From: a virus
Lineage: Duplodnaviria > Caudoviricetes
Reading direction: 5' to 3' (one strand)
Length of the DNA: 63,187 nt
Virus record (IMG/VR): IMGVR_UViG_3300042507_002438
Coordinates: 1 to 63,187 of that record
Both the position numbers and the translations under genes were made by a program. The stretch's first letter is position 1. Every line of letters starts with the position of its first letter. Positions 35,796 through 59,877 of the stretch are shown piece by piece. Under the pieces are notes generated by a model that had not been told where the DNA came from, did not search any database, and worked only from the letters and a program-made list of their open reading frames with translations.

Positions 35796-36025
35796 TTGTT
35801 ACCTCCTTGTATTACTTTATTAACCCTATCAAATAATTCTTGTAAGTCGTTCACGCTATCGATGCTCCAACCGTCGGTTTTCAGTACATAATAACAACCT
35901 TCATCATTATCTATACCAAGTGATGACTCGCATTCAATGGTAAGTATTTCAAACTCATCTGTTGTGCCGTTACTGTTTCCTTCTTGGTTAAACGTAAATG
36001 AGCATCTTTCAAGTTTTGGTTTCAT
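35792..36025 (-). CDS. Hypothetical protein ending QGGNK
   Basis: 77 aa, ATGA overlaps. Confidence 0.7.
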   Translation of the reverse strand: MKPKLERCSFTFNQEGNSNGTTDEFEILTIECESSLGIDNDEGCYYVLKTDGWSIDSVNDLQELFDRVNKVIQGGNK

Positions 36026-36471
36026 TTGTTATTCAATTCTGTTATTGATGAGTCCCAGTCAGATAATATAAACTGAAGTTTAAGGTTAGTAATTTGAGTC
36101 TTTTCTTCATTACACCATGCCATTGCCTCAAATCCTCCGGTACCATAAGAAATGGGAATTTGGTAATGCACATGAATAAGATCAGTAAGTCTGTAGTCTG
36201 CTGCACCAACAAGCAGCCTCTTAGCTTCTCTCTTTAACTCTCCTATTGATGGTACACCATCGCTTGCGCTTGACCAGTTCCAGTTCAAGTGCCACATTAC
36301 CTTGCGGACTTTATTAAAGTCAAACGACTCTAAGATGTCATCAACCAGGTCATTAACTGGATCAAGAGAAAGCTTTTTATTTGGATCTTCTAGCATCTTG
36401 CCTAACATTTCATGAAGGCTCTTAATTTCTTCTTGTGTTAAATTTTGTATATTCATGTACTTATTGTTCAT
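36022..36471 (-). CDS. Hypothetical protein
   Basis: FDF.KV..VM..L.W.W...GTGGF.A; start uncertain (36471 or 36456). Confidence 0.7.
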   Translation of the reverse strand: MNNKYMNIQNLTQEEIKSLHEMLGKMLEDPNKKLSLDPVNDLVDDILESFDFNKVRKVMWHLNWNWSSASDGVPSIGELKREAKRLLVGAADYRLTDLIHVHYQIPISYGTGGFEAMAWCNEEKTQITNLKLQFILSDWDSSITELNNK

Positions 36472-36597
36472 TATATTACGCCAAAACAAACAAATTTTAT
36501 GAGTTTTGGCTGGGTTATAAATAAAATAGGCTGTTACGTTGTAGTCATTAATCTGCTTTCACACCCAACTTAATGTCAGTATCAGATCACCTATTAG

Positions 36598-36760
36598 AAG
36601 TCAGAGGAGGACTTGAACCCCCACACCATTTGTGGTTTTCTCTAATCTACCCTTGCAAAGGTACCACCAGCGTTTGGCCACTCCTACTAAAGGTCCGCTT
36701 ACCTCCCTTCAGTAATAACAGACTTGCGGTCTATTGTGTGCACTCCTGTGCTATCTGACT
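36598..36760 (-). ncRNA. 163-nt tRNA-shaped RNA with an expanded domain in place of the anticodon arm
   Basis: Acceptor AGTCAGA/TCTGACT, D-like arm GCAC-AGGA-GTGC, T arm GGGGG-TTCAAGT-CCTCC, several internal hairpins; intergenic. Confidence 0.7.
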
Positions 36761-36885
36761 ATGCCAGGTTTTTGCATTAAGCATCCATAGAACCTGATAA
36801 CTATGCCGACTCACGATTCGGAAGGTCTGCTGATCTTACGGAAAGCTACCTTGTTTTCGATCCATTGTACTTCTGGCTACTGTTT

Positions 36886-36893
36886 CAAAGTTA
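36886..36893 (-). promoter_or_regulatory. -7 promoter box TAACTTTG heading a ~400-nt non-coding region
   Basis: TAnnTTTG just after the stop of 36905-37132. Confidence 0.55.
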
Positions 36894-36904
36894 ACTACAA
36901 CAAA

Positions 36905-37132
36905 TTACTTTTGTGTCATAGAATTGTTATAATTTCTATTGTAGTACTCTTCCGGTATCAAATTGTCTGTGAATCCAGAAACGTGCGCCTCCTTTATTCT
37001 GTCCTTCTCTATTTCCTCTGCGCGATCAAGTAGTTCATACATTACGCCATGAACTCCAACCGAACCCTCAAGTTTCATAAACTCACTCCTGAGCCATTGT
37101 ACCGCTGTTAATTTTTCTTCTGTATTTCTCAT
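36905..37132 (-). CDS. Small protein of the TAVxWL paralogue family
   Basis: TAVQWL...A.E.EK..I..A...YYN. Confidence 0.7.
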   Translation of the reverse strand: MRNTEEKLTAVQWLRSEFMKLEGSVGVHGVMYELLDRAEEIEKDRIKEAHVSGFTDNLIPEEYYNRNYNNSMTQK

Positions 37133-37301
37133 TTCTTATTTTTTGAATTGCCCTAGCTTTTGGCGTGCACTTGTGCTGAAGGTAGTACCCTCTCTGCTCG
37201 CTAAGGGTACAGTCTATACACTTTCCGTATAGACCGTCCCCATTAAACTTGTGTTTGTAAAACCTATCAGTTACAGTCTTGCACTTCTTGCACTCTTTCA
37301 T
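37083..37301 (-). CDS. Zinc-finger protein
   Basis: CxxC...FY....G....CxxC; ATGA overlap. Confidence 0.7.
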   Translation of the reverse strand: MKECKKCKTVTDRFYKHKFNGDGLYGKCIDCTLSEQRGYYLQHKCTPKARAIQKIRNEKYRRKINSGTMAQE

Positions 37302-37690
37302 CTGCATATGTACCTCATCAGGTCTCTGTAGTATCCAGTCTCCTCCGGGTACTTCATCGTTAACATGTCCGAGTATGCGTTCTTAGAGTGTATGATGCTG
37401 CTGTGGTCTCTATTGATTTTCTTTGCGACCTCAGTAACGCTCATGGCCATGTGCTCGCACGCAACAAAACATATCAGCTGTCTTGCTGTTACGATTTTTC
37501 TTGTGCCGCGCTTCTTGTCCATAAGCTGGTCCTTGGTTACAGATGTTAGCTCGCATGTAGCTTCTATCATGGTGTCGAATCTTTTTCTTAGCGTGGAGAT
37601 CGTTGGAGGGACTCCCATGCTGTCCTCCATCTTCTTGACCCTGTTTTCTAGTTCCTTGATTTGATTGTTAATTAATTCTATTGTGTTCAT
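37298..37690 (-). CDS. DnaA C-terminal-like helix-turn-helix protein
   Basis: R.R.IV.ARQ...A......S..E.A...NRDHSSIIH signature. Confidence 0.75.
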   Translation of the reverse strand: MNTIELINNQIKELENRVKKMEDSMGVPPTISTLRKRFDTMIEATCELTSVTKDQLMDKKRGTRKIVTARQLICFVACEHMAMSVTEVAKKINRDHSSIIHSKNAYSDMLTMKYPEETGYYRDLMRYICR

Positions 37691-51203: not shown

Positions 51204-51620
51204 TTAGTCCTCCCACTCTGTATAGTAACTATCCCCGTCGTCGTCATACTCTTCCTCCCACGTGGTATTGTACACGTTCTTGCACACGGCATCCCTACAC
51301 TCGTCGCAGCAAGCATGCGCCTCACCGCCTCTGAATACGTAACCCTCTGTGAAATTCCAATCGCCGCAGTTGTCACAATATCTGTAGTCGTCGTTGTGTC
51401 TGTTGCATGCATAGATAAATGTAGCCTTTTCAAAGTCGGTCAACTTCTCTCCATCAATCCAATCTGATGGTTTACAATTTGGGTCCTCAAGATACTCGGC
51501 TACTAAACTCTTCATGTAAATTGAATTTGCAACCTCTTCTCTTAATTCGTTAATTGCCCATAGTTCATTCATGATGACTACGCTCTTGACGATTTCATTT
51601 GATTTTAATAGTTGTTTCAT
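51204..51620 (-). CDS. Early protein with zinc finger and acidic tail
   Basis: CDNC...EGY...CCDEC...YYTEWE; ACACTATATC leader. Confidence 0.75.
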   Translation of the reverse strand: MKQLLKSNEIVKSVVIMNELWAINELREEVANSIYMKSLVAEYLEDPNCKPSDWIDGEKLTDFEKATFIYACNRHNDDYRYCDNCGDWNFTEGYVFRGGEAHACCDECRDAVCKNVYNTTWEEEYDDDGDSYYTEWED

Positions 51621-51641
51621 GATATAGTGTATTAATTAGTT

Positions 51642-51863
51642 TTATTGGTTAAATCCCCATTGCTCTACGAAATGGTTGTTGCATTCGCTACACCTTACAA
51701 TGCGCTGTATTGCGTTTCCTACTTGCTGCCTCTCTTCGGTTGGGGTGTACTCTGTTTCGTCCCCACAATGTCTACATATCTTTTTGTATGAGATAATTAT
51801 TTTCTTGCTTGAGGTGTTGTCATATGCCGACTCCCAAGTTACTTGATGCGCTACTTGTTTCAT
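51642..51863 (-). CDS. Zinc-ribbon protein
   Basis: CRHC...CSEC. Confidence 0.65.
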   Translation of the reverse strand: MKQVAHQVTWESAYDNTSSKKIIISYKKICRHCGDETEYTPTEERQQVGNAIQRIVRCSECNNHFVEQWGFNQ

Positions 51864-52075
51864 GCTTGTTCGATTAATTTGATGATTTCTTCAGTTGACT
51901 CCAACACCTCAAACCCACCATTGTTATGGGTAGCTACGCCAACTCTTGTGTACTTTGGCTTTATCCTATTGTCGGCATTTTCGGGAACCTCATACATATG
52001 ACCAATGTGCATGGGGTTCACGTACAATTCTTCTTTTTTGTTAAGGTAGAATGTTGTTAGTTTAATTAGTTTCAT
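51860..52075 (-). CDS. FlbD-like small protein
   Basis: IKLT....E.YVN...I......V.ES.EEI...I; ATG 52075 follows the ACACTATATT leader. Confidence 0.65.
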   Translation of the reverse strand: MKLIKLTTFYLNKKEELYVNPMHIGHMYEVPENADNRIKPKYTRVGVATHNNGGFEVLESTEEIIKLIEQA

Positions 52076-52095
52076 AATATAGTGTATTAATTTGT

Positions 52096-52141
52096 TTGAA
52101 CCGCGGAGGGGAATCGAACCCCTCTCGTTCCTTTCGCGGTT
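52096..52141 (-). ncRNA. Mini-tRNA-like element 3 (degenerate)
   Basis: AACCGCG-AAAGGAACGA-GAGGGG-TTCGATT-CCCCTC-CGCGGTT-CAA; intergenic. Confidence 0.7.
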
Positions 52142-52145
52142 AGTA

Positions 52146-52418
52146 TTATAGATGTCCTCCAAATACTTTATTGTTGTCTTCAATTAAGTCAAATCTAGTT
52201 TCAGACTCGCAGTCTATCCAATCCATTCCGTCTTGCAGTCCAAAGCCAAAATCAAATTCTGATTTACTTATGTTGTCGTCCAATTGTTCAACAAACAATT
52301 CGTGGTTATCCAAAAGCCACTCGTGTATCTTGTCTTGGCTGATGTGAGATGGAACTTCGATAGTTACTGACGCTACCTTATGGTAAACTTCTCTTGTTGT
52401 GATTGTTACTTGTTTCAT
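52146..52418 (-). CDS. Early hypothetical protein
   Basis: 90 aa; ACACTATATC leader. Confidence 0.75.
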   Translation of the reverse strand: MKQVTITTREVYHKVASVTIEVPSHISQDKIHEWLLDNHELFVEQLDDNISKSEFDFGFGLQDGMDWIDCESETRFDLIEDNNKVFGGHL

Positions 52419-52429
52419 GATATAGTGTA

Positions 52430-52714
52430 TTATTTTAAGCCTAGGTTGATGTTGATTTGATTGAACATTACAGAACTTTCAAGGTCTTCTAGAAATCCTA
52501 CCTCAATGCCGTAAGTGTCAGTATCTTTTATATTGTCGCTATATTGGACTAAAGACTCTGATTCGTCATCGTGAAGTCTGAAGACCTCCTTGTTCATGTT
52601 CATTAGGTCTAGAACCTCGGTGTGTTTAACCTCTTGGAAGATAAACCCGTCCAAGTTGTAATAAGTTTCACATGGCGCTAAGCCCAATTTTTTTACGTTT
52701 GTTAATTTTTTCAT
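52430..52714 (-). CDS. Early hypothetical protein
   Basis: ATG 52714 after the conserved leader; F.L.DD.SES.....GIEVG. Confidence 0.75.
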   Translation of the reverse strand: MKKLTNVKKLGLAPCETYYNLDGFIFQEVKHTEVLDLMNMNKEVFRLHDDESESLVQYSDNIKDTDTYGIEVGFLEDLESSVMFNQININLGLK

Positions 52715-52735
52715 GATATAGTGTATTAAATTGTT

Positions 52736-52783
52736 TGGTTCCCGTGACCCGACTCGAACGGGTAGCATGCCATTGGCACGGGA
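52736..52783 (-). ncRNA. Mini-tRNA-like element 2
   Basis: TCCCGTG-13 nt-ACCCG-TTCGAGT-CGGGT-CACGGGA-ACCA; perfect 7+5 bp. Confidence 0.85.
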
Positions 52784-52788
52784 TGAGA

Positions 52789-53136
52789 CTAGTCTAGGTA
52801 TATAGACTTGTCGTTGTTGACGTCGTAGATTGCCTTCTGATGATTGGCGTGCCCGTAAGCAATGGCGACCTCTCTGTCTTGGATGTTCATGCTCAAGTCT
52901 AGGTATAACTTGTTGTCGTCTACCCAAGCGCCAAAGTACGTGTACTCTGACCTTAGTTGTGCTTGTGGTCTGTACCTATCGCACGTCTTGTTTATCTCTT
53001 CGTCCGATATGTCATCAAAGTTGTCGATGATGAACTCTAGCCCCTCTAGGCTGACCATGTAGCCCGACGTTGGCGCGCTGTTGTCCTTGTCCAAGGAAAA
53101 CCCGCCGTTACTTTTGAGTAAGTTTGCGTAATTCAT
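52789..53136 (-). CDS. Early phage protein
   Basis: GGF...P..GYMVS...G.W.D....YLD.S...A...G....Q.AIYD. Confidence 0.75.
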   Translation of the reverse strand: MNYANLLKSNGGFSLDKDNSAPTSGYMVSLEGLEFIIDNFDDISDEEINKTCDRYRPQAQLRSEYTYFGAWVDDNKLYLDLSMNIQDREVAIAYGHANHQKAIYDVNNDKSIYLD

Positions 53137-53278
53137 TTTCAATTTCTCTTTTAAGTTCTAGTTGTCGTTCAATTGCTCGCGTTAATTTGTTGGCGTACTC
53201 GTGGCGCCCCTCTTGGTGCACTAGGTAGGCTAACTTGCCTACCCGTTGTGCGATTTCGATTAGTTCTTCTATTAGCAT
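53108..53278 (-). CDS. 56-aa helical protein
   Basis: MLIEELIEIAQRVG...; fills the gap. Confidence 0.55.
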   Translation of the reverse strand: MLIEELIEIAQRVGKLAYLVHQEGRHEYANKLTRAIERQLELKREIENELRKLTQK

Positions 53279-53517
53279 AAATCTTTGTTTGATACTTTAA
53301 GTGTGTTGTTGTGCTGTTCTGAAATCATGTCGATTGCGACTCTGTATACACGTCCGTTCGGCATTTGATAGGTCACGTACTCTTGGAGTGCGCCCGTCGT
53401 GGAGCGGTGTGTAACCACCCCACTGCGCCATGCTTGATTTCGGTAGACCTTACACTCTCTAGCCCACCCGCGAAACTCGTCGCGTGCTTCGGGCAGTTCA
53501 TTTAATAGGTTAGTCAT
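53272..53517 (-). CDS. Early hypothetical protein
   Basis: MTNLLNEL...; start uncertain (53556 possible). Confidence 0.65.
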   Translation of the reverse strand: MTNLLNELPEARDEFRGWARECKVYRNQAWRSGVVTHRSTTGALQEYVTYQMPNGRVYRVAIDMISEQHNNTLKVSNKDLC

Positions 53518-53521
53518 GTCG

Positions 53522-53710
53522 TTAGTTGATTTTGTTTGATTGAATATGTAATTCATGCAGCATGTCTGATACGTTACATATCATCTGTTCTGTGTGCATT
53601 AAGTTTTGTTGGTCAGCAAAGCATTCGCCTTTTTCCATGTTGTACATTTTGCGAAGTGTCTTAAGAAACTTCTCGCATGCAGCAATTTTTTCTTCTTGAA
53701 TTGTTCTCAT
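53522..53710 (-). CDS. Early hypothetical protein
   Basis: 62 aa; conserved leader. Confidence 0.7.
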   Translation of the reverse strand: MRTIQEEKIAACEKFLKTLRKMYNMEKGECFADQQNLMHTEQMICNVSDMLHELHIQSNKIN

Positions 53711-53727
53711 GATATAGTGTGTTATGG

Positions 53728-54006
53728 TTAATATGTGTACAATGTGTTGTTGAAATTAATCGGGAGTTTTTTTGCTTTGATATATCCGTTACGCATGGTT
53801 TTGTATGTATTAATTGGCATCCAAAAACCAAAGCAAGACAAGAATGAGGATACGTAGATAAATGCCGCCTTATCCGTCATTACAATAGCGCGGCATCCGT
53901 GAGTTACCTCTTCATTTTGTGAGATTTTAAAAATTGGCTCGTCGGATGACTCATATTTTAACTTGAAGTCATCGGACATTTGCGGTGTAATTTTGATTGT
54001 CTTCAT
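53728..54006 (-). CDS. Early hypothetical protein
   Basis: ATG 54006 after the conserved leader, 21 nt from the hammerhead cut. Confidence 0.7.
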   Translation of the reverse strand: MKTIKITPQMSDDFKLKYESSDEPIFKISQNEEVTHGCRAIVMTDKAAFIYVSSFLSCFGFWMPINTYKTMRNGYIKAKKLPINFNNTLYTY

Positions 54007-54021
54007 GATATAGTGTGTTAT

Positions 54022-54071
54022 GGTTAAGACGCCCGTAGGCGTTTCGTCCAATTAGGACTCTTCAGTTAACC
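54022..54071 (-). ncRNA. Type I hammerhead ribozyme 1
   Basis: GGUUAA-CUGAAGA-GUCC-UAAUU-GGAC-GAAA-CGCC-UACG-GGCG-UC/UUAACC; complete core, three perfect stems. Confidence 0.93.
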
Positions 54072-54272
54072 TTTGTGGTCGTGAAAAACAACTTGGTGCG
54101 ACCTAATTAGTTCGGGTATACAATACGCGTCCCAATCACCGCTCTCTATTTTGTTGTCAGCATAATCAATTGCCTCCTCAATTGGTACGTTTACATACGG
54201 GCAGTTCGCATAGATTTCGTTTGGAATTTCACTAACGAATACGTCGTTGAAGTAGATTGTTACTAGTTGCAT
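54066..54272 (-). CDS. 68-aa acidic early protein bracketed by two hammerheads
   Basis: Conserved leader; stop codon lies in hammerhead stem I. Confidence 0.75.
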   Translation of the reverse strand: MQLVTIYFNDVFVSEIPNEIYANCPYVNVPIEEAIDYADNKIESGDWDAYCIPELIRSHQVVFHDHKG

Positions 54273-54287
54273 GATATAGTGTTTTAT

Positions 54288-54339
54288 GGTTAATATGCCC
54301 CGCAGGGCATTTCGTCTATTGAAGACTCGTCAGTTAACC
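54288..54339 (-). ncRNA. Type I hammerhead ribozyme 2
   Basis: GGUUAA-CUGACGA-GUCU-UCAAU-AGAC-GAAA-UGCCC-UGCG-GGGCA-UA/UUAACC; stems covary with copy 1. Confidence 0.93.
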
Positions 54340-54501
54340 TCTTACTCCTCCATTGTAGCACCTTTTCACTTTGTAGTGAGAAGACCCAATTTGCTTTTCC
54401 ATTTTTTTCGCTTGAACACAAGCATCTTTTAGGTTTGAAGCAATTATGTAAATGCTTGAAGGCTTGCCGTTTGAGTAGATTACATTGTAGGTGTTGTTCA
54501 T
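54334..54501 (-). CDS. 55-aa first early protein
   Basis: MNNTYNVIYSNG...NGGVRG*; conserved leader; stop in hammerhead stem I. Confidence 0.7.
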   Translation of the reverse strand: MNNTYNVIYSNGKPSSIYIIASNLKDACVQAKKMEKQIGSSHYKVKRCYNGGVRG

Positions 54502-54520
54502 GATATAGTGTGTAATTAGT

Positions 54521-58335: not shown

Positions 58336-59877
58336 ATGATCGTAAAAAACATTGAATTCGACAAGGATCGACTGTTAGTTGGTATCTCAAAGATTGCCGC
58401 AGCAGTTGGAAGTACGATGGGACCGATGGGTCGCACGGTGTTGTTAGAGTCAGAGAACCACGTCGGTGGCGTTACAGTCACAAAGGACGGGGTAACAGTT
58501 GCTAGAGGGATCACTCTAGAAGACCCGGTAGAGAATTTAGCGGTTACATTGATGAAGCAGGCAGCAGAGAAGACTGCGGTAAGTGCCGGAGACGGTACGA
58601 CCACGTCAATTGTGCTGACGCATGCCATCATCGACACGTTTATTGCCAGCGGAAGAGAGGCCGTGGCAAGTGAGATGCGTGCAATTAAGAAAAGTTCAGA
58701 GGAGATCATCGAGAGACTAAAGGAGATGGCTGTTCCAGTGACTGACGAGACGTTACTACACGTTGCGACGATCAGCGCTAACGGAGACGAAGAGATTGGT
58801 CAGTTAGTGGCTGACGTATTCATGCGAGTTGGCGGCTCTGGGGTTGTTACGGTGGAGAGAAGCAATACCAGCAAGACGTACTTTGAGATCTCTGAGGGAA
58901 TGCGCATCAACAGAGGATGGACCAGTCCATACTTTATTACGGACCACAAAAAGAGAGAGGCTGTATTGGACAATCCATACGTGCTAGTGACGGACAGAGA
59001 GATACAGAGCATCCAAAGCATCGAGCACATATTGGCGCCGCTGGTGAGAGACGGCAAGAGCATACTAATCATCGGAGAGATGAACACGCACGCGTTGAAC
59101 GCTCTGAACATGAACGTTGCTAAGGGCACGATCAAGGCGGCTGCCGTGGTTCCTCCGCAGTTTGGATACAAAAGAAAAGAATTAATGGCTGACATCGCTA
59201 ACGCTGTTGGTGCAAAGTATATCAGCGACGAGGTTGGGGACGACTTTGGCCTGGTTAATATTTCTGACCTGGGGCGCGTGAGCAAGGCGGTGATCGGAAA
59301 GGACTCAACGGTGATGGTGATGCAAGACAACTCTTTGGCAAAGAATAGAGCGGACGAGTTGTTGTCGATGGAGGCTCCGGTGGACGAGGAGGAGAAGAAG
59401 TTCTTGGCAGAGAGAATCGCGACGCTAAACGGTAGTGTTGGGGTTGTGTATGTTGGGGCGCAGACGGACATCGAGCAGAAAGAGAAGTACGACAGGGTGG
59501 ACGACGCGGTGAGCGCTACAAAGGCTGCAATCGAGGAGGGAATCCTTCCTGGCGGTGGTTACGCACTGTTAAAGATCAGTGAGACCATGCCAGAAGACGA
59601 CGTGATGACTAATGCGGTGACAATTCCGTTCTACACCATATTGGAGAACGCTGGATTCGACGAGGACATGATCCAGACGGTGTGTGACGAGTTTGACGCC
59701 AATGGTCGGGCATTCAACCCTGTGACTCAGGAGTTTGGAGACATGATGGAGATGGGAATCGTTGACCCACTTAAAGTTACAAGAAGTGCAATCGAGAACG
59801 CGGTGAGCGTTGCTACGACTATCTTGAGCACACAGGCAATCATTTATAACATGAGAGAGCATGAGAGCGGTAAATAA
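58336..59877 (+). CDS. groEL: Chaperonin GroEL
   Basis: TMGP.GR, TKDGVTVA, AGDGTTT, TISANGD, EEGILPGGG, GIVDP.KVTR.A. Confidence 0.96.
   Translation: MIVKNIEFDKDRLLVGISKIAAAVGSTMGPMGRTVLLESENHVGGVTVTKDGVTVARGITLEDPVENLAVTLMKQAAEKTAVSAGDGTTTSIVLTHAIIDTFIASGREAVASEMRAIKKSSEEIIERLKEMAVPVTDETLLHVATISANGDEEIGQLVADVFMRVGGSGVVTVERSNTSKTYFEISEGMRINRGWTSPYFITDHKKREAVLDNPYVLVTDREIQSIQSIEHILAPLVRDGKSILIIGEMNTHALNALNMNVAKGTIKAAAVVPPQFGYKRKELMADIANAVGAKYISDEVGDDFGLVNISDLGRVSKAVIGKDSTVMVMQDNSLAKNRADELLSMEAPVDEEEKKFLAERIATLNGSVGVVYVGAQTDIEQKEKYDRVDDAVSATKAAIEEGILPGGGYALLKISETMPEDDVMTNAVTIPFYTILENAGFDEDMIQTVCDEFDANGRAFNPVTQEFGDMMEMGIVDPLKVTRSAIENAVSVATTILSTQAIIYNMREHESGK

What the first reader, a model, noticed from the sequence alone, without database searches (positions are those of the whole stretch)
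36598..36760. 163-nt tRNA-shaped RNA with a multi-hairpin domain replacing the anticodon arm
Seen: 7-bp acceptor, UA, a short D-like arm GCAC-AGGA-GUGC (very similar to GCAC-UAGGC-GUGC in mini-tRNA 1), then ~115 nt closed by ACAC/GUGU. This insert contains hairpins AAUAGAC/GUCUGUU, ACUGAAGG/CCUUUAGU, UACCUU/AGGGUA and ACCA/UGGU, followed by a T arm with UUCAAGU. It is too short for tmRNA or a group I intron tRNA, has no encoded CCA, and lies downstream of its own -7 box (36886-36893). Inference: a tRNA scaffold displaying an RNA cargo, possibly the same family as the mini-tRNAs.
Basis: partly seen in the sequence, partly recalled or inferred. Interest (0 to 1): 0.72.

Follow-up and report, generated by a model that had tools for sequence, protein, structure and literature searches.

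The report
Phage tRNA-shaped RNA carrying conserved cargo
A lake-water phage encodes a 163-base RNA that has the outer frame of a leucine tRNA but carries a conserved multi-hairpin module where the anticodon and variable arms should be. It belongs to a previously uncatalogued phage RNA family whose frame is reused with many different inserts.

Summary
On the minus strand, 36760-36598 forms a 7-bp acceptor stem, U8-A9, a mini D hairpin and a canonical T arm around a ~115-nt insert.

I found 28 homologues in phage and metagenome contigs (116-194 bits with a model built here; window copy 176.5 bits). A 24-sequence alignment supports 47 base pairs, 30 of them with compensatory double changes.

The frame is tRNA-Leu-like. 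A 3-bp remnant of the anticodon stem is capped by two hairpins (loops CGCAA and GAGGUAAGCGGA). The variable arm is expanded into a nested three-helix arm.

ARAGORN's 92-nt "tRNA-???" parse is not supported either.

Relatives sit in phage tRNA arrays, as close as 1-9 nt to real tRNAs. Homology between contexts starts and stops at the acceptor stem. A close strain lacks the whole 318-nt block.

The commonest frame occurs in at least 120 IMG/VR stretches, carrying 111 unrelated inserts among 136 unique units.

Rfam has no family for it. GenBank phages and 151 Bacteroidota genomes lack it.

Best reading: a tRNA-processed, tRNA-stabilised non-decoding RNA whose insert is the effector. Expression and function are untested.

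The parts
36598..36760 (-). Whole tRNA-shaped RNA gene (163 nt including discriminator U36598; no encoded CCA)
   Evidence: Model R1 scores it 176.5 bits, E 7.9e-50, over all 168 model positions. Homology with copies in other genomic contexts begins within 3 nt of 36760 and ends about 2 nt past 36599.
36754..36760 (-). Acceptor stem, 5' strand AGUCAGA, followed by U8-A9 at 36753-36752
   Evidence: Pairs 7 of 7 with 36605-36599. All 7 acceptor pairs show compensatory changes across 24 homologues, with 100% of cells paired.
36598..36605 (-). Acceptor stem, 3' strand UCUGACU (36605-36599), plus discriminator U (36598)
   Evidence: The discriminator is A in 16, U in 6 and G in 2 of the 24 homologues.
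36740..36751 (-). Mini D arm GCAC-AGGA-GUGC
   Evidence: Aligns with the full tRNA-Leu-type D arm (GCGG...ACGC) of most relatives; 3 stem pairs are kept in 23 of 23 scorable rows. A strain variant, C36750 to U, keeps the pair as U-G.
36736..36738 (-). P6 5' strand CAC, the remnant of the anticodon stem; pairs with GUG at 36681-36679
   Evidence: Pair types seen: CAC/GUG, UAC/GUA, AAG/UUU. 94.4% of cells paired, and 2 of 3 pairs show double changes. I derived this helix by eye from the alignment.
36717..36735 (-). P1 hairpin, 7 bp, with invariant pentaloop CGCAA (36728-36724)
   Evidence: 5 of 7 pairs show compensatory changes; 98.8% of cells paired.
36684..36715 (-). P2 hairpin, 9 bp, with a 14-nt loop that contains the invariant GUAAGCGG
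   Evidence: 7 of 9 pairs show compensatory changes; 96.8% of cells paired. A strain variant, U36689 to C, turns a G-U pair into G-C.
36625..36681 (-). P6 3' strand (36681-36679), then the expanded variable arm. P5 is GCC 36678-36676 with GGU 36627-25. P4 is GUGGU 36667-63 with ACCAC 36636-32. P3 is ACCUU 36662-58 with AGGGU 36653-49, loop UGCA.
   Evidence: P3 pair types seen at the two covarying stem positions: CU/GG, GG/CC, UG/CA, GA/UC. P4 is paired in 100% of cells, with one double change. P5 has 2 covarying pairs.
36606..36622 (-). T arm GGGGG-UUCAAGU-CCUCC
   Evidence: 3 of 5 stem pairs show compensatory changes. L092 carries GCCG-UUCGACU-CGGC at this position.
36761..36904 (-). Upstream leader holding a TAACTTTG box (36893-36886), 126 nt before the RNA's 5' end
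   Evidence: The leader is shared with L091 and L094. TANNTTTG is enriched in the window. Promoter use is inferred, not shown.
36596..36913 (.). 318-nt block (leader plus RNA gene) that is absent from a close relative
   Evidence: A contig at depth 1211 in run X15 joins 36595 to 36914 with 48 other letters in between (table 5).

Best explanation
The element is a gene for a stable, non-decoding RNA derived from a tRNA.

Shown:
- It is an intact member of a conserved phage RNA family.
- Its outer frame (7-bp acceptor stem, D arm, T arm) is that of a type-II, tRNA-Leu-like molecule.
- The anticodon stem is cut down to 3 bp and capped by two hairpins, P1 and P2. The variable arm is expanded into a nested P5-P4-P3 arm.
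- About 70 of the ~115 insert nucleotides are at least 90% conserved, and the stems covary.
- The unit is bounded exactly by the acceptor stem. It sits among tRNA genes in many phages and moves as a cassette.
- Frame and insert are exchangeable modules.

Inferred:
- In arrays the RNA is transcribed with neighbouring tRNAs. Here it is transcribed from its own leader, which has a Bacteroidetes-type -7 box.
- It is cut out by RNase P and the 3' tRNA-processing enzymes, receives CCA, and is protected from decay by the tRNA fold.
- The frame therefore acts as a processing and stability scaffold, and the conserved insert is the effector.

My best guess for the effector is a decoy or inhibitor. It would bind and occupy a conserved host factor that recognises long-arm (type II) tRNAs, such as a tRNA-cleaving defence nuclease or a tRNA-handling enzyme. 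That last step is speculation (about 0.2-0.25 on its own).
For: Family:
- Pattern scans fetched near-identical and diverged copies.
- Model R1 finds 28 copies at 116-194 bits in 924,583 nt of held loci.

Structure:
- RNAalifold predicts 43 pairs, 26 with compensatory changes.
- The refined structure has 47 pairs and 96.8% of cells paired, against 33-43% when partners are slid.
- 30 pairs show double changes. The covariation score is 0.484 against 0.05-0.09 for slid partners, and 0 of 500 shuffles reach it.

tRNA-Leu frame:
- Rfam tRNA matches the typical member L106 at 33.3 bits. It does so by replacing the 17 anticodon-arm positions with a 107-nt insert.
- The best R1 matches in 151 Bacteroidota genomes are 83-87-nt genes. 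The 5 of 5 that I checked are tRNA-Leu.

tRNA-like handling:
- 7 of 24 unique members have an ARAGORN tRNA within 80 nt on the same strand. Spacers are 1 nt (L097), 4 nt (L103), 5 nt (L109) and 9 nt (L114, inside a 24-tRNA array).

Discrete unit and cassette:
- Flanks differ right up to the acceptor stem and are mosaic between loci.
- A close strain lacks 36596-36913.
- The two strain SNPs inside stems both keep pairing.

Modularity:
- Six acceptor variants carry this insert.
- The commonest frame occurs 9, 7 and 4 times in single phage contigs and in at least 120 IMG/VR stretches.
- Among 136 unique units there are 111 insert clusters, and only 23 of 136 get any ARAGORN call.

Context for the decoy idea:
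- Septu and retron-Eco7 cleave the variable loop of the long-arm tRNA-Tyr, and phage tRNAs counter this (passages of PMC13096335).
Against: - There are no expression or processing data. No RNA run was listed as a holder, so a discrete transcript is not shown.
- The window copy itself gets no Rfam tRNA hit. It has a reduced D arm and U73, so recognition by tRNA enzymes is an assumption.
- The discriminator varies (A 16, U 6, G 2 of 24), which argues against one fixed aminoacylation identity.
- Single-sequence folding energy is unremarkable (z = -1.91).
- Across the wider scaffold set, inserts are only slightly more stable than shuffles: median z = -0.62 over 120 inserts, mononucleotide shuffles. 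'Structured cargo' may not hold for all of them.
- Helices P5 and P6 were read off the alignment after the fact.
- Nothing links this insert to any target. A blast of inserts against 2.25 Mb of held phage DNA found no partners outside other scaffolded units (397 of 411 hits; the other 14 were mostly family members with variant T loops or truncated units).
- No cultured phage carries the family, so no host or phenotype is known.
Confidence: 0.6

Rival explanations
1. It is a working tRNA-Leu gene interrupted by an intron. Splicing would remove the ~115-nt insert and leave a normal decoding tRNA.
For: - The frame is tRNA-Leu-like.
- Some units on the same frame are called tRNA-Leu(UAA) or (CAA) by ARAGORN: 7 of 136.
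- aragorn -i proposes introns in 16 of 29 oversized neighbours.
- tRNA-Leu(UAA) is the classic host of bacterial group I introns (recalled).
Against: - No Intron_gpI or any ribozyme hit at E up to 10.
- 115 nt is well below known group I sizes (recalled).
- Removing the insert leaves no anticodon stem-loop or variable arm.
- The only closing helix is 3 bp.
- The aragorn -i calls give scattered, inconsistent anticodons.
Confidence: 0.07
2. It is an aminoacylated but non-decoding RNA. A synthetase (LeuRS in most relatives) would charge it, and it would work like tmRNA or as an amino-acid donor for a transferase.
For: - The frame keeps acceptor, D and T arms.
- 16 of 24 members keep A73.
- LeuRS does not need the anticodon or the variable arm (recalled from the literature; not checked here).
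- One reading frame in the core ends at a UAA or UAG in most copies (read by eye).
Against: - No G3:U70 pair; position 3:70 is U:A.
- ARAGORN finds no tmRNA and Rfam gives no tmRNA hit.
- The discriminator varies, and the window copy has U73 and a mini D arm.
- The candidate frame has no stop in L097.
- P3 varies as base pairs, not as codons.
Confidence: 0.1
3. The insert is a catalytic or ligand-binding RNA (a ribozyme or an aptamer-like sensor), and the tRNA frame only delivers it.
For: The pattern is typical of ribozymes and riboswitch aptamers. Long invariant junctions and loops (CGCAA, GUAAGCGG, AAACGC, AGAGAAAAC.AC with one variable base) sit between covarying stems.
Against: - No match to any of the 4227 Rfam families.
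- It is not placed in a 5' UTR.
- No cleavage site or ligand can be proposed from sequence.
Confidence: 0.1
4. Conservation acts on the DNA rather than on an RNA. The block would be a recombination or homing target, or a decayed tRNA pseudogene carried along.
For: - Flanks are mosaic and the block is present or absent between strains.
- A small endonuclease VII/HNH-like ORF lies about 320 nt upstream.
- The scaffold ends are conserved at the nucleotide level.
Against: - 30 of 47 pairs change on both sides while keeping pairing. That is selection on a folded RNA.
- The insert is far better conserved than its flanks.
- The 61-codon ORF on the plus strand (36573-36758) is broken in relatives by 2-nt and 1-nt indels.
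Confidence: 0.05

Closest known systems
Canonical type-II tRNA-Leu (Rfam RF00005 tRNA)
   Same: 7-bp acceptor stem, U8, D arm (full in most relatives), and a 5-bp T stem with a UUCRANY loop. Located in tRNA arrays. The best cellular matches to the family model are tRNA-Leu genes.
   Different: There is no anticodon loop. The anticodon stem is reduced to 3 bp and capped by two hairpins, and the variable arm is about 55 nt. The window copy fails the Rfam tRNA model, and ARAGORN's parse is not conserved.
Phage T4 RNAC / RNAD (species 1 and 2 stable RNAs of the tRNA cluster)
   Same: Small stable RNAs (139 and 119 nt) encoded at the end of a phage tRNA cluster. rnaC ends in a T arm, CCGGG-UUCGAAU-CCCGG. 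Their function is still described as unknown (passages of PMC3014915 and PMC9697503).
   Different: Not homologous by the model built here: 12.8 bits for rnaC, comparable to ordinary T4 tRNAs (7.8-22.2 bits). The interior differs, and the acceptor-like stem of rnaC has two U-U mismatches as I read it.
Engineered 'tRNA scaffold' for recombinant RNA (Ponchon and Dardel approach)
   Same: The same design principle: a cargo RNA replaces the anticodon region of a tRNA so that the cell processes and stabilises it. Basis: PMC3753655, search listing and start of abstract only; details recalled.
   Different: That scaffold is man-made. This one is natural, phage-borne, multi-copy and diverse, and its cargo also replaces the variable arm.
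tmRNA
   Same: A tRNA-like acceptor and T-arm domain joined to a large internal domain.
   Different: No G3:U70 pair, no long P2 helix or pseudoknots, and no conserved tag frame. Half the size or less. Not detected by ARAGORN or Rfam.
Bacterial Y RNA YrlA (tRNA-like module)
   Same: A non-coding RNA that imitates tRNA arms. Basis: PMC4201824, listing only; details recalled.
   Different: In YrlA the free ends form the Ro-binding helix and the acceptor-like stem is closed (recalled). Here the free ends form the acceptor stem. No Rfam hit.

Membership tests
tRNA (RF00005) | 7-bp acceptor stem and T arm with a UUCRANY loop and a G53-C61 pair | tested here: met
   Seen directly; pairs covary.
tRNA (RF00005) | Anticodon arm: 5-bp stem with a 7-nt loop bearing U33 and an anticodon | tested here: not met
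   The anticodon arm is replaced by the P6/P1/P2 domain. ARAGORN's alternative, a 6-nt loop UUGCAA with a proximal acceptor, pairs in only 49.4% of cells across homologues.
tRNA (RF00005) | Score at or above the Rfam gathering threshold (29 bits) | tested here: not met
   The window copy gets no hit even at E up to 10. The typical relative L106 reaches 33.3 bits, but only by skipping the anticodon arm.
tmRNA | G3:U70 alanine identity pair | tested here: not met
   Position 3:70 is U:A.
tmRNA | Detection by ARAGORN or the Rfam tmRNA models; a conserved tag reading frame | tested here: not met
   No tmRNA call and no Rfam hit. The candidate frame is not conserved in L097.
Group I intron in a tRNA gene | Group I core (Rfam Intron_gpI), with exons that rebuild an anticodon arm | tested here: not met
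   No hit at E up to 10. The sequences flanking the insert cannot form an anticodon stem-loop.
T4 RNAC-like stable RNA | Sequence and structure homology to T4 rnaC | tested here: not met
   R1 scores rnaC at 12.8 bits, comparable to ordinary T4 tRNAs (7.8-22.2 bits). It is an analogue, not a shown homologue.
New family defined here (model R1) | Full-length match to the 168-position covariance model, including the invariant loops | tested here: met
   176.5 bits, E 7.9e-50, model positions 1-168. The window copy was part of the seed alignment, so the match is partly by construction. Its 23 seed partners were found independently, through motifs.
New family defined here (model R1) | Expressed as a discrete, processed RNA | not testable with these tools
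   No RNA run listed as a holder.

The most novel reading that the evidence does not exclude
Uncultivated freshwater phages use one nearly constant tRNA-Leu-like frame as a natural expression, processing and stability cassette. It would carry a large, fast-turning library of small RNAs: over 100 unrelated inserts, and up to 9 units per contig fragment.

On this reading the constant ends double as homology arms for swapping cassettes between phages. The inserts, including this conserved 115-nt module, would be effectors aimed at host factors, for example decoys for defence nucleases that attack long-arm tRNAs.

That would be a natural counterpart of the engineered tRNA scaffold, and a new class of phage counter-defence or takeover RNAs.
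Probability: 0.3. Interest if true: 0.9.

Novelty: new variant of a known kind. Interest (0 to 1): 0.78.

Why it matters
tRNA-like stable RNAs in phage tRNA clusters have been known since T4's RNAC and RNAD, and their role is still called unknown.

This finding gives that old puzzle a large, alignable data set:
- a covariation-supported family with clear invariant loops that can be mutated
- a much wider set of RNAs that share one tRNA-Leu frame but carry different inserts.

If the frame is a natural scaffold, several things follow:
- It shows how phages make many stable small RNAs without dedicated promoters or terminators.
- It explains 'pseudo' or oversized tRNA calls in phage genomes.
- It offers ready-made parts for RNA expression in Bacteroidota.

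If the inserts target tRNA-directed defences, it opens an RNA-based branch of counter-defence.

Tried and rejected
- blastn of the 501-nt region and of a typical member against 50,697 GenBank phage records: no match.
- nhmmer of the element against 80 loci around the relatives' exonuclease gene: only one hit, at E = 2.
- ARAGORN on those 80 loci: only an ordinary tRNA-Met in L011 and L012, at a similar distance from the exonuclease gene but unrelated in sequence.
- My scaffold scan also hit L021, L031 and L039. Those hits lie inside a 179-codon ORF and were dropped.
- The downstream 149-aa protein has no relatives in IMG/VR. The flanking small ORFs have no PHROG family.
- An exact 24-mer of the T arm plus acceptor: 0 IMG/VR hits.
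- The genome-contig scan gave one hit, L096 (a Bacteroidetes MAG). Its flanks are unlike the element and R1 does not match it, so it is a chance match and gives no host clue.
- L104 is also a chance match: only 1 of 5 T-stem pairs, and no R1 hit.
- No RNA holder was listed among 24 sequencing runs.
- GTTAACTTTG as a longer box is not enriched: 11 matches against 7.5 expected.
- A comparison of flanking proteins between the window and G002 found nothing. A second comparison failed on wrong coordinates and was not repeated.
- An anticodon-stem-like CAUU/AAUG closure was considered and dropped. It clashes with P1, which is kept by compensation in the window's subfamily.
- The 3524-aa ORF matched only a PHROG of unknown function. 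'N4-like' is therefore my impression from gene layout (recalled), not a tested result.
- Eight literature searches found no description of this family or of a natural phage tRNA scaffold with variable inserts. The supplementary tables of PMC10690425 (10,006 candidate viral structured RNAs) could not be seen and may list it.

Full report
**What the window is**

The window is a complete 63,187-bp IMG/VR virus record. Structural genes lie on the plus strand: terminase, portal, virion proteins and a 3524-codon ORF. Early and replication genes lie on the minus strand: exonuclease, ribonucleotide reductase, helicase and primase-polymerase.

The finding lies on the minus strand in a gap of about 430 nt. 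The gap is bounded by a 75-codon ORF (stop at 36905) and a 149-codon ORF (ATG near 36471).

**The observation**

Read 5' to 3' on the minus strand, the sequence is:
- AGUCAGA (36760-36754)
- UA
- GCAC-AGGA-GUGC
- an insert of about 115 nt
- GGGGG-UUCAAGU-CCUCC
- UCUGACU (36605-36599)
- U (36598).

The acceptor stem is 7 of 7 Watson-Crick pairs, and no CCA is encoded.

A mechanical scan for 'T arm followed by a 7-nt strand that pairs with an upstream 7-mer' found this element and one mini-tRNA. Thirty shuffles of the window averaged 0.07 hits. With looser spacing the scan finds four such frames, all on the minus strand.

Standard tools say little:
- Rfam gives nothing at gathering thresholds for the whole window.
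- Rfam gives nothing relevant at E up to 10 for 36000-37400.
- ARAGORN calls a different, 92-nt 'tRNA-???' (36688-36597) with a 6-nt anticodon loop.
- Folding energy is only mildly better than shuffles: z = -1.91, and 12 of 200 shuffles fold as well.

**Finding relatives**

Sequence searches against GenBank phages and against 80 loci from relatives with a 59-74% identical exonuclease found nothing.

Laying contigs of four lake-water metagenome runs on 36350-37150 gave the lead. Two results mattered:
- A high-depth contig of a close strain joins 36595 to 36914, with 48 other letters in between. The leader plus the RNA gene is therefore a 318-nt presence/absence block, and its 3' edge lies 2-3 nt beyond the acceptor stem.
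- Several other contigs match only the core of the insert at 85-90% identity and then diverge. That revealed which motifs are conserved.

Pattern scans built from those motifs fetched:
- 2 near-identical copies from IMG/VR
- 5 from JGI metagenomes
- 23 stretches with a looser pattern. Two of these were already held, and one (L104) is a chance match.

A hit in a Bacteroidetes MAG (L096) is also a chance match.

**Structure**

Twenty-seven full-length copies reduce to 24 unique sequences of 161-207 nt, which align in 211 columns. RNAalifold predicts 43 pairs, 26 with compensatory changes.

By inspecting the alignment I replaced a 2-bp local hairpin with two helices that covary:
- P6: CAC just after the D arm pairs with GUG after P2. 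Variants seen are UAC/GUA and AAG/UUU.
- P5: GC(C) pairs with (G)GC, or with (G)GU in the window's subfamily, just before the T arm. Variants seen are GU/AC and AC/GU.

On this 47-pair structure:
- 96.8% of 1122 cells are standard pairs, against 33-43% when partners are slid by 1-3 columns.
- 30 pairs have double changes.
- The covariation score is 0.484, against 0.05-0.09 for slid partners. None of 500 shuffles reaches it.

The layout maps onto a long-arm (type II) tRNA in this order:
- acceptor stem
- D arm
- a 3-bp remnant of the anticodon stem (P6), whose 'loop' is two hairpins: P1 (7 bp, loop CGCAA) and P2 (9 bp, loop containing GUAAGCGG)
- a roughly 55-nt variable arm (P5-P4-P3, loop UGCA)
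- T arm.

Three alternatives do not hold across the family:
- ARAGORN's proximal acceptor: 49.4% paired.

Two SNPs inside stems in strain X3 both preserve pairing.

**What the frame is**

Most relatives carry a full D arm of the tRNA-Leu type. Rfam's tRNA model matches L106 at 33.3 bits by treating the whole anticodon arm as a 107-nt insertion.

A covariance model of the family (R1) was searched in 151 Bacteroidota genomes. It finds only 33-38-bit matches of 83-87 nt. The five I checked are all tRNA-Leu. No cellular genome among those searched holds the insert.

**Context**

In other phages the RNA sits in tRNA arrays on the same strand as the tRNAs:
- 1 nt after tRNA-Trp (L097)
- 4 nt after tRNA-Glu (L103)
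- 5 nt before tRNA-Arg (L109)
- between tRNA-Gly and tRNA-Pro in a 24-tRNA array (L114).

Seven of the 24 unique members have a called tRNA within 80 nt. With such spacing the RNA must be released by the same enzymes that free the neighbouring tRNAs; this is an inference.

Between contexts, similarity starts within 3 nt of position 1 and ends about 2 nt after the acceptor stem. Flanks are recombined in different combinations.

In the window the RNA has its own leader with TAACTTTG at 36893-36886. The motif TAnnTTTG is enriched: 77 matches against 53 +/- 7 expected, reached by 0 of 100 shuffles. It often lies just before plus-strand gene starts. I recall this motif as the Bacteroidetes -7 promoter element, and it fits a lake Bacteroidota host. 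Neither the promoter nor the host is shown.

**Frame and insert are separable modules**

This insert occurs on six acceptor variants:
- AGUCAGG: 13
- AGUCAGA: 6
- AACACAG: 2
- AGUUAGG, AACCAAG and GAAGGGG: 1 each.

It occurs with full or mini D arms, sometimes with a 20-45-nt hairpin inserted in the D loop.

Conversely, R1's second tier of hits (20-63 bits) consists of other oversized tRNA-like genes in the same arrays. They share a near-identical 5' end (acceptor plus D arm) and 3' end (T arm plus acceptor), but their interiors are unrelated.

How common that frame is:
- Its 5' 15-mer occurs 9, 7, 4, 1 and 1 times in five phage contigs, and 0 times in reversed controls.

In the loci held there were 163 matches to the 3' 25-mer. 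They gave 144 units, of which 136 are unique:
- Lengths spread evenly from about 70 to 182 nt.
- The interiors form 111 clusters.
- ARAGORN calls only 23 of the 136, with scattered anticodons. Seven are Leu(UAA) or Leu(CAA), so the frame probably began as a real phage tRNA-Leu.

Interiors match only other framed units: 397 of 411 blast hits in 2.25 Mb. They are only slightly more stable than shuffles, with a median z of -0.62.

**Interpretation**

The data show a real, selected, structured RNA family with tRNA ends and a modular build.

The most economical mechanism is that the tRNA frame provides three things: excision from transcripts, CCA addition, and resistance to decay. The insert would then do the work. 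This is the same logic as the engineered tRNA scaffold (PMC3753655; listing and start of abstract only).

What this insert binds is unknown. About 70 of its ~115 nucleotides are at least 90% conserved across very different phages (contigs of 20-165 kb). That points to a conserved target.

Defence systems that cut the variable loop of a long-arm tRNA, and phage tRNAs that counter them, are documented (passages of PMC13096335). I therefore rank a decoy or inhibitor of a tRNA-recognising host factor first. It is a guess.

The rivals (intron-bearing tRNA, charged tmRNA-like RNA, ribozyme or aptamer, DNA-level element) are listed with their evidence in the rival explanations.

**Comparison with known RNAs**

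The nearest precedent is T4 RNAC/RNAD. These are stable RNAs at the end of the T4 tRNA cluster, and rnaC ends in a T arm. Their role is still described as unknown. R1 gives rnaC only 12.8 bits, so it is an analogue, not a shown relative.

The element is not a tRNA by Rfam's or ARAGORN's criteria. It is not a tmRNA, not a group I intron host, and not a YrlA-type Y RNA; see the membership tests.

Eight literature searches found no description of the family or of a natural variable-insert tRNA frame in phages. Supplementary tables of the large viral structured-RNA survey (PMC10690425) were closed and could hold it.

**Verdict**

The finding is real and its interpretation holds in essence. It is a new family, and it exposes a wider scaffold-and-insert phenomenon. 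Expression, processing and function remain to be tested.

Noticed in passing
window 54569-54524, 52783-52740, 52141-52099 (minus strand): Three 'mini-tRNAs' of 43-46 nt: a 7-bp acceptor stem, a short linker or hairpin, and a T arm, with no anticodon arm. Two have an encoded CCA. They lie between early genes. Each folds as expected (z = -2.1, -1.1, -2.0). Similar ones occur in relatives (L082, L085). They may be empty versions of the same kind of frame, or processing signals in the early transcript.
   Followed up: partly
window 51613-54511 (minus strand): Eight copies of an ACACUAUAUCAUG-type leader that ends in the start codon of successive small early genes (repeat family D3).
   Followed up: no
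window 36527-36593 (minus strand); L089 about 585-650: The about 65 nt just downstream of the RNA (AUAGGUGAUCUGAUAC...CAGCCUAU) recur in L089 in another context and are missing from L094. This is a second small mobile module. Its fold is not better than shuffles (z = -0.48).
   Followed up: partly
L084 1436-1521 and 1665-1774 (contig G002, a 62-kb relative of the window phage): Two odd tRNA-like genes about 140 nt apart (starts about 230 nt apart). The first shares its leader and acceptor with family member L092 but has a different, shorter interior. The second has a hairpin inserted in the D loop and reaches Rfam tRNA at 30 bits. Its loop could present the anticodon UUA (my reading).
   Followed up: partly
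L098 2002-2095; L099, L100, L112, L116: A tRNA-Leu(CAA)-like gene on the common frame with an 8-nt anticodon loop (ARAGORN calls the anticodon 'caag'). Several family members also carry 20-45-nt insertions inside the D loop.
   Followed up: no
window, whole: TAnnTTTG is enriched (77 matches against 53 expected) and often lies just upstream of plus-strand gene starts (for example 8723, 12092, 12443, 19646, 20465, 56760, 58310, 60772). This suggests a Bacteroidota host using its own promoter type for late genes.
   Followed up: partly
window 37083-37307 (minus strand): A 74-codon ORF with weak endonuclease VII / HNH-like PHROG matches (E = 5e-6) lies about 320 nt upstream of the mobile RNA block. 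This recalls the homing endonuclease SegB in the T4 tRNA cluster.
   Followed up: no
window 58336-59877 (plus strand): A phage-encoded GroEL-like chaperonin (phrog_5725, E = 6e-124).
   Followed up: no
L243 (T4) 1547-1409: T4 rnaC contains CGUAAGC, which resembles the invariant GUAAGCGG of the P2 loop. With only 7 shared letters it may be coincidence.
   Followed up: no
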